Part shown: one piece after another, positions 21,902-26,097 of the stretch | How the letters are laid out: every line of letters begins with the position of its first letter | How positions within the stretch are numbered: the stretch's first letter is position 1 | Assembly: GCA_963813815.1 (NCBI GenBank) | Contig: CAWFAD010000011.1 | Coordinates: 128,001 to 192,000 of the forward strand | Source: an uncultured bacterium | GTDB lineage: Bacteria; Krumholzibacteriota; Krumholzibacteriia; Krumholzibacteriales; Krumholzibacteriaceae | Length of the DNA: 64,000 bases | Direction of reading: 5' to 3' | Translations under genes and position numbers: made by a program | The notes under the pieces: generated by a model | The model's input: only the letters and a program-made list of their open reading frames with translations | What the model was told of the DNA's origin: nothing | Database searches by the model: none

Positions 21902-23272
21902 ATGGATGGCGACGGGGAAATGACACTGCGCCGCGCCCTGCGCGACTGGGAGCGGGAGCTGCTCGAGGCGGGCGATCTCTACCTCGTGGGGGGAACCGTT
22001 CGCGACATGATCCGGGGCGCGGCGGTCGACTCGATCGACGAGGATTACGTCGTTTCCGGGATCGCGCTCGAGGATCTCACGCGGATTCTCGAGCGGTTCG
22101 GTTCGCTGAGCCTCGTGGGACGCTCCTTCGGCGTGATCAAGTTCTCCGCTGGATCCGAGAGGACGGTCGACATATCCCTTCCCCGCACGGAGTTCTCGAC
22201 GGGGCCGGGGCACCGGGATTTCAACGTCCGTTTCGACCCGTCTCTTCCGATCGAAAAGGATCTCGAGCGCCGGGATTTCACGATCAACTCGATGGCATTT
22301 CAGCTCGGCGAGGAAATCCTCGTCGATCCGCTCGGGGGGCGCGGCGATCTCGACCGCGCCCTGCTGCGCGTGAACCGTGACGACTCGTTCCGCGAGGATC
22401 CGCTGAGGATTCTCCGCGGGGCGCAGTTCATGGCGCGTTTCGGCCTCTCCGTCGAGGAAGGCACGCGCGAGTGCATGCGGCGGGACCGGGGCCTCGTGGC
22501 GACGATCTCCTCCGAGCGGGTGCGGGACGAGCTCACGAAGCTGCTGCTCCTCTCGCCGAGGCCCTCGACCGGTTTTCTCTTCATGCGCGAGGTGGGAGTG
22601 CTCGAGATCGTTCTTCCGGAGCTCGACCGAACGTGGGGGGAGAGCCAGAACGAGTACCACCCGGATGACGTCTTCATGCACAGCCTGCGAAGCTGCGACC
22701 TCGCGCGGGCAAATCTCACGCTGCGTTGGAGCGCCCTGCTGCACGACCTCGGCAAGAAGGACAGAAAGCAGGTCGTCGAGGGGAGAACCGTTTTCTATCG
22801 CCACGAGCAGGATGGGGCCCGCATGGCCGAGGAGATTCTCGACCGCCTGAGATACCCGCGCGAGCTTTCCTCAAGGGTCGTCGACCTCGTGAAGCACCAC
22901 ATGTTCCACATCACCGACGAATGGTCGGACGGCGCGGTGAGGAGATTCATATCGCGCGTGGGCAGGGGGAACGTCGACGGGCTTCTCGAGCTCCGCGAAG
23001 CGGACGGTCGGGCGCGCGGCGACGGGGCGGTAGAGGCGGAGAACCGGCGGATACGGGATCGCATACGGAGCATTACGGAGTCGGATGCGGCCTTCAAGAT
23101 TCAGGATCTCGCTATCGGGGGGCGTGAGGTTATGGATGCGCTCGGGCTCGGGCCCGGGCCCGAAGTCGGGGATGCGCTTCGGCGATTGCTCGACATCGTG
23201 CTCGAGGATCCCTCGCGGAACACGCGAGAGGAGCTGCTCGCCATTATCGGGGGGAGGGGGGAAAAAATATGA
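21902..23272 (+). CDS. cca: CCA tRNA nucleotidyltransferase with HD domain
   Basis: VGGTVRD, DEDY, DLERRDFTINSM, EDPLRILR, LLHDLGK; alternative start at 21920. Confidence 0.88.
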   Translation: MDGDGEMTLRRALRDWERELLEAGDLYLVGGTVRDMIRGAAVDSIDEDYVVSGIALEDLTRILERFGSLSLVGRSFGVIKFSAGSERTVDISLPRTEFSTGPGHRDFNVRFDPSLPIEKDLERRDFTINSMAFQLGEEILVDPLGGRGDLDRALLRVNRDDSFREDPLRILRGAQFMARFGLSVEEGTRECMRRDRGLVATISSERVRDELTKLLLLSPRPSTGFLFMREVGVLEIVLPELDRTWGESQNEYHPDDVFMHSLRSCDLARANLTLRWSALLHDLGKKDRKQVVEGRTVFYRHEQDGARMAEEILDRLRYPRELSSRVVDLVKHHMFHITDEWSDGAVRRFISRVGRGNVDGLLELREADGRARGDGAVEAENRRIRDRIRSITESDAAFKIQDLAIGGREVMDALGLGPGPEVGDALRRLLDIVLEDPSRNTREELLAIIGGRGEKI

Positions 23273-23387
23273 GAGTTTCCGCAACGGGTGTCAGGGTGCA
23301 AGCCAGAGTGGGTTCGAGGGAAGGCCCCCGATGTCCAGCATGCTAAGCAACTTCGGTCTGGGCAAAGAGTTAATTGCGGAAACTCTC
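23262..23387 (-). ncRNA. Candidate novel structured small RNA (~120 nt)
   Basis: Perfect 14-bp terminal inverted repeat (23271-23284 / 23374-23387), internal helices, upstream TTGACA-18-TATATT promoter and downstream ATATTTTTT on the minus strand. Confidence 0.65.
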
Positions 23388-23394
23388 GTTGATA

Positions 23395-23424
23395 AATATA
23401 GGTAATGGAACCTATCCTTGTCAA
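23395..23424 (-). promoter_or_regulatory. sigma70 promoter of the candidate ncRNA
   Basis: TTGACA (23424-23419), 18 bp, TATATT (23400-23395); predicted +1 at ~23388/23387. Confidence 0.65.
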
Positions 23425-23472
23425 ATGGAAAAGTTCGGAAGTTGAAATTACTATGTGAGAGGCGAAACGCCG

Positions 23473-23787
23473 ATGATTGAAATGAGGCGAATCGAGAGGC
23501 TGGTCGCGGAAATAAAGAGGCAGCTTTTCCCATACAGCCATGCGAGCGACGTGGAGCGCAGCTGCGAAAGATGGGACGTGGACATTCGAGATTGCATGAC
23601 CTCATGGATGGTGGAGCAGATCAAGAACTGCCGGAAGAAAAACGGCTGCGACGGCCGTGAGCGCTGCTCGTACTACAGTCACGGAGACCTCGCGAAGAGG
23701 AATTACGAAATCTGCCGGGAGATGAGCATCCTGATGGAAAGCGGAGAGATTTCGTGCGTTCCTTCCGATAATGAATTGAAAGAATAG
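23473..23787 (+). CDS. Hypothetical Cys-rich protein (104 aa, 7 Cys)
   Basis: ORF with a GAGAGG RBS-like site, filling the gap before dnaK; no recognised family. Confidence 0.6.
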   Translation: MIEMRRIERLVAEIKRQLFPYSHASDVERSCERWDVDIRDCMTSWMVEQIKNCRKKNGCDGRERCSYYSHGDLAKRNYEICREMSILMESGEISCVPSDNELKE

Positions 23788-23790
23788 CCC

Positions 23791-23823
23791 TGCCAAATAT
23801 TGCCAATGTGGCATTGTATGGCA
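23791..23823 (+). promoter_or_regulatory. Nested palindrome TGCCA-N5-TGCCA-N3-TGGCA-N5-TGGCA (candidate activator site)
   Basis: Directly visible; ~105-135 bp upstream of a sigma54-like element. Confidence 0.5.
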
Positions 23824-23927
23824 GAGTAAGCAGCCAGCATAGTTAGCAGCTCTTGCGCCAGCCCTTCAGTCGTTCGTCTATCTTGTTATATTACAACATA
23901 ATATAGTGCTGGCGTCGAGAGCCGACG

Positions 23928-23942
23928 TGGCATGATATTTGT
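23928..23942 (+). promoter_or_regulatory. sigma54-like -24/-12 element upstream of dnaK
   Basis: TGGCATGATATTTGT versus consensus TGGCACGNNNNTTGC (GT instead of GC at -12). Confidence 0.45.
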
Positions 23943-23983
23943 TGTTGACTCAAGCGTGTTTTCTAAAAGCGAGGTGCAATACA

Positions 23984-25900
23984 ATGTCGAAGATTATTGG
24001 GATCGATCTCGGAACGACGAACTCATGCGTGGCGGTAATCGAGGGGAATGAGCCGTCCATCATACCGAATCCCGAGGGAGGGCGCACGACGCCTTCCGTG
24101 GTAGGGTTCAAGGATCATCAGCGTCTCGTCGGAGTGCTGGCTAAACGGCAAGCCGTCACGAATCCAAAAAACACGGTCTACTCGATCAAGCGCTTCATGG
24201 GCAGAAAGTTCGCCGAGGTGGCGAACGAGCGCTCCGAGGCGCCGTATGAGGTGTTTCAGGGACCGAACGGGGACGCGCGCGTGCGTCTCGACGGCAAGGA
24301 GTACACGCCGCCCGAGATCTCGGCGTTCGTGCTCCAGTATCTCAAGGAAGCGGCCGAGAAATACCTCGGCGAGAAGGTGACGCGCGCCGTCATCACCGTC
24401 CCGGCCTATTTCAACGACAGCCAGCGTCAGGCCACGAAGGACGCCGGGCGGATCGCTGGGCTCGAGGTCGAACGCATCATCAACGAGCCGACCGCCGCCG
24501 CGCTCGCCTACGGGCTCGACAAGCAGGGGGAGAAGACGATCGCCGTGTTCGATCTCGGCGGGGGAACGTTCGACATTTCCATACTCGAGATCGGAGACAG
24601 CGTTTTCGAGGTCAAAGCCACGAACGGCGACACGCATCTCGGCGGAGACGACTTCGATCAGCGCGTGATGGATTGGATCATCGCCGAGTTCAAGCGCGAG
24701 CAGGGCATCGACCTCTCGAACGACGCGATGGCCGTGCAGCGGCTGCGCGAGGCCGCCGAGAAGGCGAAGTGCGAGCTTTCGACCGTTCCGCAGGCGGAGA
24801 TCAATCTGCCCTTTATCACCGCGGACGCGAACGGCCCGAAGCATCTCGGGATGAAGCTCACCCGGGCGAAGCTCGAGTCCCTGACGGCCGATCTCATCGA
24901 ACGCACGGTGGGTCCCTGCCGGGCCTGCCTCCGCGACGCGGGATTCAAGCCCGAAGATCTCGGCGAGGTGATCCTCGTCGGCGGCGCCACCCGCATGCCC
25001 GCCGTTCAGGAGAAGGTGAAGGAGCTTTTCGGCAAGGAGCCGCACCGGGGCGTGAATCCGGACGAGGTCGTCGCTCTCGGGGCCGCGATTCAGGGAGGGG
25101 TTCTCGCCGGCGACGTGCACGACGTGCTGCTGCTCGACGTGACCCCGCTGTCACTCGGCATCGAAACGCTCGGCGGCGTCATGACGAAACTCATCAACCG
25201 CAACACGACCATTCCCACGCGCAAGAGCGAGGTCTTCTCCACCGCGGCGGACAACCAGACGACCGTGGAGATTCACGTGCTGCAGGGAGAGCGGGAGATG
25301 GCTCCCAACAACAAGTCGATCGGCCGGTTCCAGCTCGCCGGCATTCCGCCCGCGGGGCGCGGGATCCCGCAGATCGAGGTTACGTTCGATATCGACGCGA
25401 ACGGCATCCTGAACGTTTCGGCGAAGGACAAGGCGACCGGCCGGGAGCAGAAGATCATCATTCAGCCGTCGAGCGGGCTCAGCGAGAATGAGATCAAGAA
25501 AATGGTGAGCGAAGCCGAAGCGAACGCCGCCGAGGATCACGCGAAGCGCGAGGCGATCGATCTGCGAAATCAGGCGGATCAGCTCGCCTACCAGACGGAG
25601 AAGCAGCTTCTGGAGTACAAGGACAAGATTCCGGCCGAGGACGAGGCCGAGCTGCGGAGGGTCCTCGAGGAGCTCAAGGAAGCCGCGAAATCGGAGAGCG
25701 CGGAACGCATTCGCGCCGCGATCGACCGGCACAACGCGGTCTGGCAGCGCGCCTCGCAGAAAATGTATCAGGCCGCGGGGGCGGCTCAGGGCGCGGGACC
25801 GCAGGGGCCTGCCCCGGAGCCCGAGGCGCCCGCCGGAAACGCGCAGGAAGGAAAGGCGGTCGACGCGGACTACGAGATCCTCGACGACGACAAGAAATGA
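23984..25900 (+). CDS. dnaK: Chaperone DnaK (Hsp70)
   Basis: [58 protein letters not shown]. Confidence 0.98.
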
Positions 25901-26020: not shown

Positions 26021-26097
26021 GGGCGATTAGCTCAGATGGTTAGAGTACCTGCTTGACATGCAGGGGGTCACTGGTTCAATTCCAGTATCGCCCACCA
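26021..26097 (+). tRNA. tRNA-Val(GAC)
   Basis: GGGCGAT/ATCGCCC acceptor stem, loop TTGACAT, encoded CCA. Confidence 0.96.

What the first reader, a model, noticed from the sequence alone, without database searches (positions are those of the whole stretch)
23262..23424. Stand-alone structured small RNA gene hidden between cca and dnaK
Seen in sequence: on the minus strand, TTGACA-18 bp-TATATT places +1 at ~23388/23387, at the first base of a perfect 14-bp inverted repeat (GAGAGUUUCCGCAA ... UUGCGGAAACUCUC) enclosing 117 nt. The repeat is followed at once by AUAUUUUUU. Inside the closing stem are an asymmetric pyrimidine-rich bubble (UUAACUCUU / CCCUGACACCCG), a second helix (UGC-CCAGA / UCUGG-cuu-GCA) and an apical hairpin CGGGGG-ccuu-CCCUCG. 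The G-U pair in that hairpin works only on the minus strand. Promoter, fold and U-tract therefore agree on one strand. I do not recognise it as tRNA, SRP, tmRNA, RNase P or a riboswitch, and the normal 6S RNA is elsewhere (33550). Inference: the stem-bubble-stem shape could be a miniature promoter mimic (6S-like) or a Y-RNA-like scaffold. It is divergent from a Cys-rich orphan gene, and its 3' arm overlaps the cca stop codon.
Basis: partly seen in the sequence, partly recalled or inferred. Interest (0 to 1): 0.85.

Follow-up and report, generated by a model that had tools for sequence, protein, structure and literature searches.

The report
Undescribed small RNA resembling miniature 6S
A little-studied group of uncultured bacteria keeps a conserved small RNA gene beside its main heat-shock chaperone gene, and the RNA's shape suggests a stripped-down second decoy for the transcription enzyme, although binding is untested.

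Summary
The gene is real; its function is inferred. A minus-strand sigma-70 promoter, a closing stem and a U-tract frame a 117-nt RNA with no Rfam match. It is single-copy. A covariance model finds it in 65 of 78 other genomes of five Krumholzibacteria families and, at full length, in 0 of 72 genomes of four other families (many hits were training sequences). The closing stem covaries at 13 of 14 pairs, and a perfect TTGACA precedes 54 of 63 copies. What is conserved is a 13-17 bp stem, a C-rich bubble with a 3' CCCUGAC motif, and a variable apical arm. The best reading (about 45%) is a natural miniature 6S-like RNA polymerase decoy that coexists with canonical 6S. The bubble geometry fits, and the stem's 3' strand can re-pair with the bubble (53 of 62 copies, 10 expected). 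It is not a 6S family member by score or sequence. No expression or binding data exist here. This scan's notes held no earlier record of the RNA.

The parts
23419..23424 (-). -35 hexamer TTGACA of a sigma-70-type promoter
   Evidence: perfect TTGACA upstream of 54 of 63 homologues and 27 of 27 further metagenome copies
23395..23400 (-). -10 hexamer TATATT; +1 inferred at about 23389-23387
   Evidence: TAnnnT in 59 of 63 homologues; start site not measured
23262..23387 (-). small RNA gene body (117 nt plus U-tract)
23373..23387 (-). closing stem P1, 5' strand (the putative template for a short product RNA)
   Evidence: 13-17 bp in 59 of 63; 93% of cells paired, 13 of 14 pairs with changes on both sides, 0 of 500 shuffles
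23344..23372 (-). 5' strand of the bubble, with a conserved YUUUGCCC(C) block (23369-23360) and a degenerate UACUCGA block (23349-23343)
   Evidence: alignments; block variants
23298..23343 (-). apical arm: helix nt 45-54/81-90 and hairpin nt 57-63/68-74; variable in length across the clade
   Evidence: 14-71 nt and 4-23 bp across 62 copies
23286..23297 (-). 3' strand of the bubble carrying the CCCUGACAC motif (candidate -10-like element)
   Evidence: CUGAC in 62 of 63, the full 12-mer in 40 of 62; 5-8 nt from its G to P1 in 59 of 62. Detection partly depended on this motif.
23271..23285 (-). closing stem P1, 3' strand; purine-biased core that can re-pair with either bubble strand
23262..23270 (-). 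U-rich tract after the stem (likely 3' end)
   Evidence: at least 5 T in the next 10 nt in 58 of 63
21902..23272 (+). CCA-adding enzyme gene (PolyA_pol plus HD), convergent neighbour
   Evidence: adjacent in 45 of 45 loci examined, but about 10 kb away in G036
23482..23787 (+). Cys-rich orphan gene X (type A, about 101 aa), divergent neighbour, not a required partner
   Evidence: no Pfam match; type A in 22, unrelated type B in 22, none in 1 of 45 loci
23984..25900 (+). dnaK, the most constant neighbour
   Evidence: within the locus in 43 of 45, the other two ending at a contig end; stays with the RNA in G036

Best explanation
A stand-alone small RNA that works as a miniature 6S-like decoy and template for RNA polymerase, in addition to the canonical 6S RNA. 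Shown by comparison: it has its own sigma-70 promoter and U-tract, and folds into a 13-17 bp closing stem, an open C-rich bubble and a variable apical arm. Inferred: polymerase binds the bubble as an open promoter, with the closing stem as the downstream duplex and the 3' CCCUG strand as the -10-like strand. It then copies the 5' stem strand into a product RNA of about 15-19 nt. The freed 3' stem strand re-pairs with CCUG (a 3'-bubble hairpin) or with YUUUGCCC (a collapse helix), which releases the enzyme. The apical arm is too short in some lineages to reach a -35 contact, so affinity should be lower than for 6S, or the target may be another polymerase form. Whether it tunes transcription during proteotoxic stress, as its place beside dnaK might hint, is a guess.
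For: (1) Architecture: terminal stem, bubble and apical helix in all lineages. (2) The 3' bubble motif resembles the 3' central-bubble motif of the class's own 6S, consensus CCACc-Ttg. It lies 5-8 nt before the downstream stem in 59 of 62 copies; the same gap is 7 nt in this window's 6S, read. (3) CUG can pair with the closing stem's 3' strand over a 9-13 nt loop in 53 of 62 copies against 10.1 expected from shuffles, and over at least 4 bp in 35 against 2.6. This holds in every lineage and in a shifted register in f6. It also holds in 27 of 27 further metagenome copies, 4.4 expected. (4) With nt 1-18 blocked, the freed strand re-pairs with a bubble strand in 49 of 62. (5) Stem columns 130, 133 and 134 are purine in 62, 63 and 62 of 63, although the stem covaries, which points to a second constraint. 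(6) PMC8876501 (abstract, introduction and found passages): engineered 78-nt B. subtilis 6S-1 RNAs, with only the bubble and two short arms, still bind polymerase about 10-fold more weakly, template product RNAs and release. It also reports that a 3'-bubble hairpin or a collapse helix drives release.
Against: There is no binding or expression evidence. No Rfam 6S match at E up to 10 here or in 16 homologous loci. No HMM homology either way with 30 local 6S RNAs (best E 0.69 and 1.2). The 5' bubble strand is about 28 nt in most copies, roughly twice that of this window's 6S, and its UACUCGA block is unexplained. In most copies the first unpaired base lies 5-7 nt before the U, against 4 in the local 6S, so the -10-like register is off. 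The latent hairpin has no covariation support, because the bubble side does not vary (476 of 500 shuffles reach it). Kin are not independent, so the shuffle tests overstate. Only 13 of 30 local canonical 6S RNAs pass the same hairpin test (5.9 expected). In E. coli, loss of the distal apical stem abolishes binding, and mutation of residues 131-136 barely changes it (passages). A binding role therefore does not by itself explain an invariant CUGAC. A canonical 6S is already present in almost all of these genomes.
Confidence: 0.45

Rival explanations
1. A sponge or scaffold for a protein other than RNA polymerase, which reads the single-stranded CUGAC and the other bubble blocks.
For: The CUGAC core does not vary even by wobble-neutral changes. 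The motif is predicted to be mostly unpaired (mean unpaired probability 0.41-0.93 per position). The apical arm varies freely.
Against: No partner gene travels with it. The neighbouring orphan differs between clades, can be missing and can persist without the RNA. No TROVE match. This reading does not explain the complementarity between stem and bubble.
Confidence: 0.2
2. A trans-acting base-pairing small RNA whose C-rich bubble strands bind G-rich ribosome-binding regions of mRNAs.
For: Two or three conserved pyrimidine-rich single-stranded blocks. Many motif variants are C-to-U or A-to-G changes, which keep pairing with a fixed partner. C-rich seeds are common in bacterial small RNAs (own knowledge).
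Against: The 11-mer complement occurred 26 times in five genomes (two of them the RNA gene itself) against 24 for the reversed control. The only homology between hit loci of different genomes was the RNA gene itself. No complementary rRNA site stood out in all three genomes checked. The test covered near-perfect complements only.
Confidence: 0.17
3. An antisense RNA for tRNA. The two bubble strands on either side of the apical arm pair with tRNA positions 43-60 (variable loop and T arm), for example of unfolded tRNA or tRNA halves handled by the neighbouring CCA enzyme.
For: The two consensus blocks, joined, match elongator tRNA-Met at 16 of 18 positions. This is the only site within 3 mismatches in the 2.5-Mb genome, and the next-best tRNAs match in the same register. 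It beat 600 of 600 block shuffles.
Against: The join was chosen after the fact. An invariant U faces C49. tRNA-Met position 59 is A, G or U in genomes where the RNA block is unchanged. This window's own copy is degenerate in that block. The RNA is separated from cca in G036. Whole-sequence alignment to antisense tRNAs does not single out tRNA-Met or tRNA-Val.
Confidence: 0.07
4. A switchable terminator or attenuator that gates antisense transcription into cca. The alternative pairings would act as antiterminators.
For: Promoter, stem and U-tract point into the 3' end of cca in 45 of 45 loci. Alternative pairings of the stem's 3' strand exist.
Against: The full element persists in G036 about 10 kb away from cca. 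A 100-nt loop is unusual for an attenuator (own knowledge). No Rfam riboswitch match.
Confidence: 0.06

Closest known systems
6S RNA (Rfam RF00013), including the second paralogue 6S-2 of Bacillus subtilis
   Same: Rod with a terminal stem, a central bubble and an apical arm. A CC-Y-UG motif on the 3' bubble strand a few bases before the downstream duplex. Potential for a 3'-bubble hairpin or collapse helix. Coexists with another 6S.
   Different: About 100-130 nt with tail rather than about 200. No extended terminal stem, a long 5' bubble strand, and an apical arm as short as 4-9 bp in some copies. No score against RF00013 and no HMM homology to local 6S.
Engineered minimal 6S-1 variants 6S78 and 6S82cp (PMC8876501)
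   Same: A bubble flanked by two short helices with no -35 arm; a run-off product of about 17 nt would result (passages).
   Different: Those are laboratory constructs. This would be a natural, conserved gene with its own promoter.
Ms1 / scr3559 and CoRP RNAs of Actinobacteria (PMC9130861, PMC8539372, PMC11077062)
   Same: Lineage-restricted structured RNAs, distinct from 6S, that associate with RNA polymerase core or holoenzyme (search listings and abstracts only).
   Different: Different phylum, and no Rfam match of any family here. They are larger (recalled, not checked) and experimentally validated, whereas this RNA is not.
Bacterial Y RNAs (Yrn1, YrlA)
   Same: Small size, paired 5' and 3' ends, a pyrimidine-rich internal loop (family features recalled).
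   Different: No Ro60/TROVE match in the genome, no Rfam hit, and no tRNA-like module in the predicted folds.

Membership tests
6S RNA (RF00013) | Scores against the family covariance model | tested here: not met
   No match at E up to 10 in the window stretch or in 16 homologous loci; the canonical copy scores 83 bits elsewhere
6S RNA (RF00013) | Sequence homology to the lineage's own 6S | tested here: not met
   HMMs in both directions, 63 candidates against 30 local 6S RNAs: best E 1.2 and 0.69
6S RNA (RF00013) | Rod with closing stem, central bubble and apical stem | tested here: met
6S RNA (RF00013) | About 200 nt, with an apical arm long enough for a -35-like contact | tested here: not met
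   100-130 nt with tail; apical arm 14-71 nt, 4-23 bp
6S RNA (RF00013) | -10-like motif in the 3' bubble at open-promoter spacing | tested here: inconclusive
   Similar motif and 5-8 nt downstream gap, but the upstream spacing is usually 5-7 nt against 4
6S RNA (RF00013) | Product-RNA-induced refolding (3'-bubble hairpin or collapse helix) | tested here: inconclusive
   Potential in 53 of 62 and 27 of 27, but no covariation
6S RNA (RF00013) | Binds housekeeping RNA polymerase holoenzyme and templates product RNA | not testable with these tools
   needs experiment
Y RNA (Yrn1 / YrlA) | Ro60 (TROVE) partner in the genome | tested here: inconclusive
   No match in this genome, which is 91% complete; relatives not searched
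Y RNA (Yrn1 / YrlA) | Match to Rfam Y or Yrl models | tested here: not met
MITE or dispersed repeat | Many dispersed copies at varying sites | tested here: not met
   One copy here; one full-length copy per genome; same locus in 45 of 45
SRP RNA, tmRNA, RNase P RNA | Stands in for a missing housekeeping RNA | tested here: not met
   All three are present elsewhere, above the family cut-off

The most novel reading that the evidence does not exclude
A natural minimal promoter-mimic RNA, of separate origin from 6S, that lacks the -35 arm and therefore targets a different polymerase form (core enzyme or an alternative-sigma holoenzyme). It would give these bacteria a second RNA switch on transcription next to a sigma-54-type dnaK promoter, and would be a further class of polymerase-binding RNA beside 6S, Ms1 and CoRP.
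Probability: 0.2. Interest if true: 0.85.

Novelty: new variant of a known kind. Interest (0 to 1): 0.64.

Why it matters
Few kinds of RNA are known to bind bacterial RNA polymerase: 6S, Ms1 and recently CoRP (abstract of PMC11077062). A natural RNA of about 115 nt that keeps only the bubble and short arms would show that the laboratory-minimised 6S design exists in nature. It would make 'what is the least RNA a polymerase accepts as a promoter, and which sigma does it select' testable with a synthetic RNA and purified enzyme. Even if the decoy reading fails, this is a well-supported RNA family absent from Rfam 15, conserved across five families of an uncultured lineage, with a ready covariance model.

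Tried and rejected
Expression: no RNA holder was listed for 22400-24600, so no reads were laid; this says nothing for or against expression.

A GUUA/UGAC helix predicted within the genus never changes on both sides and is absent from the 63-sequence consensus.

Orphan gene X as partner: the two types are unrelated (hhalign probability 2%) and their predicted folds differ. Neither has a clear solved-structure match (best Z 6.0 and 3.9), and the Atlas search gave nothing above 0.78; these blanks do not show a new fold.

Origin from an antisense tRNA-Val fragment, suggested because tRNA-Val follows cca directly in two f5 genomes: not supported by whole-sequence alignment. A site in this genome's 16S rRNA complementary to all three blocks did not hold up in the two other genomes.

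Only a 34-nt match at E 0.5 in phages and nothing in plasmids. Those with an informative title are Krumholzibacteria, 'Latescibacteria' or UBP1; several are titled only 'bacterium'. The pattern was specific, so distant relatives in other phyla could be missed. The weak G149 hit is an ordinary terminator-like hairpin.

Literature: 'Krumholzibacteri' with 'noncoding RNA' gave 0 papers. The 'Latescibacter' search listed 10 of 91 papers, none containing that term. Searches listed no description of this RNA. The library lacks most subscription papers, and supplements of large motif surveys were not searched.

Full report
Observation. The minus strand carries TTGACA-18-TATATT at 23424-23395. Then come 117 nt closed by a 14-bp perfect inverted repeat with a 15th U-G pair (23387-23271) and a U-rich tract. 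The minus strand folds far better than its shuffles (z -4.82, 0 of 200) and better than the plus strand (z -2.39). In 17 of 21 homologues sampled (every third of 63) the same strand wins. Rfam 15 has no match over the element at the gathering score, at E up to 10, or in 16 homologous loci. SRP RNA, tmRNA, RNase P RNA and 6S are all present elsewhere. The element is single-copy.

Conservation. BLAST found it in 13 of 40 relatives. A model from those 14 sequences found one copy in 52 of 151 class genomes. A second model from 63 sequences gave full-length matches in 65 of 78 other genomes of families f1, f2, f3, f6 and f9, and none in 72 genomes of f4, f5, f7 and f8. I left out two 36-37 nt partial hits, G149 and G067, and many positives were training sequences. 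The phylum sample held the same families and gave the same pattern. Record titles place the lineage in Krumholzibacteria. All 45 loci examined lie convergent to cca, and 43 include dnaK; the other two end at a contig end. A perfect TTGACA precedes 54 of 63 copies, TAnnnT 59 of 63, and at least 5 T follow the stem in 58 of 63 (best site within 50 nt, no shuffle control). All 36 metagenome pattern hits matched the model, and the 27 non-duplicate ones all have TTGACA.

Independence from its neighbours. The divergent gene is a Cys-rich protein in 22 of 45 loci and an unrelated protein in 22. G036 keeps the RNA 296 nt from dnaK, with no match to either orphan type and with cca about 10 kb away. G020, G064 and G111 keep cca, the orphan and dnaK but have no RNA at the locus and no model match (89-95% complete). 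So the RNA is a separate, mostly retained but losable gene.

Structure. The closing stem is firmly supported: 93% of cells paired, 13 of 14 pairs with changes on both sides, 0 of 500 shuffles, all slid controls lower. It is 13-17 bp in 59 of 63. Across the clade the apical arm ranges from 4 to 23 bp. The sequence that is kept lies in the bubble: a 3' CCCUGACAC block (CUGAC in 62 of 63, partly by ascertainment) and, less strictly, 5' YUUUGCCC and UACUCGA blocks.

Mechanism. The best reading is a miniature 6S-like decoy. The class's own 6S has the 3' bubble consensus CCACc-Ttg. The candidate's CCCUG sits 5-8 nt before the downstream stem in 59 of 62, close to the 7 nt in this window's 6S (read). 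That the corresponding E. coli bases mimic promoter positions -11, -7 and -6 is recalled, not checked. The stem's 3' strand keeps a purine core that can pair with CUG over a 9-13 nt loop: 53 of 62 copies against 10.1 expected and 27 of 27 new copies against 4.4. With the 5' strand blocked, as a product RNA would block it, the freed strand re-pairs with a bubble strand in 49 of 62. PMC8876501 (abstract, introduction and found passages) describes these two release routes for 6S RNAs. It also shows that a 78-nt 6S-1 with only the bubble and short arms still binds, templates and releases.

Evidence against that reading. There is no family score and no HMM homology to local 6S. The 5' bubble strand is about twice as long as in 6S, and the upstream register is usually off by one or more bases. 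The latent hairpin shows no covariation, and only 13 of 30 local 6S RNAs pass the same test. Related genomes inflate the shuffle statistics. In E. coli the apical arm is required and the 3' bubble bases matter little for binding. Canonical 6S is found in 33 of 34, 1 of 1, 7 of 7, 22 of 23 and 13 of 13 genomes of the five families, so this RNA is an addition, not a replacement. I put the decoy at 0.45, and the claim that it is a real stand-alone RNA gene at about 0.93.

Rivals. A sponge for another protein (0.2) explains the invariant CUGAC but has no partner gene. An mRNA-pairing small RNA (0.17) fits the C-rich strands, but no shared target appeared in five genomes. Antisense pairing with the tRNA T arm (0.07) rests on a striking but after-the-fact 16 of 18 match to tRNA-Met. 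It is undercut by a fixed mismatch and by tRNA changes the RNA does not follow. A gate on antisense transcription into cca (0.06) is undercut by G036.

Novelty. It is not in Rfam 15. It was not found in the paper searches (a limited library, supplements of motif surveys not seen) or in this scan's notes. It works most like 6S but does not meet the membership tests, so I file it as a new variant of the polymerase-decoy kind, with the reservation that the function is unproven.

Noticed in passing
window 23928-23942 (+): Sigma-54-type motif (TGGCA...TTG) upstream of dnaK. A similar motif lies within 160 nt of the dnaK start in 39 of 43 homologous loci (loose pattern, no shuffle control), mostly with TTGA or TTGT instead of TTGC.
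   Followed up: partly
window 23482-23787 (+): Cys-rich orphan of about 100 aa with four invariant cysteines, a helical model at pLDDT 80, and no Pfam, Atlas or clear PDB match. It is conserved upstream of dnaK in f1, f2 and f3 and may bind a metal (inference).
   Followed up: partly
L031:1765-2070 and 21 other loci (f6, f9): A different orphan of about 100 aa occupies the same slot before dnaK, with an alpha-beta model and no clear PDB match.
   Followed up: partly
L178:2898-2974, L180:2910-2986 (f5); window 26021-26097: In two f5 genomes tRNA-Val(GAC) follows cca directly; here it follows dnaK. The RNA-orphan-dnaK block thus sits between cca and tRNA-Val.
   Followed up: partly
G034-G050 sample: Families without the RNA have a much more distant cca (E 1e-42 to 1e-57) than families with it (E 1e-112 or better). 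This is probably shared ancestry rather than co-evolution; no tree was built.
   Followed up: no
family f7: Rfam 6S was found in only 2 of 12 f7 genomes searched, most of them over 90% complete. Their 6S may be divergent or replaced.
   Followed up: no
L259:1-3351 (G036): About 10 kb of other genes, apparently a metal transport cluster by reading of the ORFs (not searched), separate cca from the RNA. The nearest gene starts 62 nt downstream of the RNA on the same strand.
   Followed up: no
L166:1384-1486 (G059): One copy has lost the CUGAC motif while keeping promoter, stems and 5' blocks: a natural variant useful as a control.
   Followed up: no
window 23795-23825 (+): Repeated TGCCA/TGGCA-type palindromic words between the orphan and dnaK, possibly activator sites for the dnaK promoter.
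   Followed up: no
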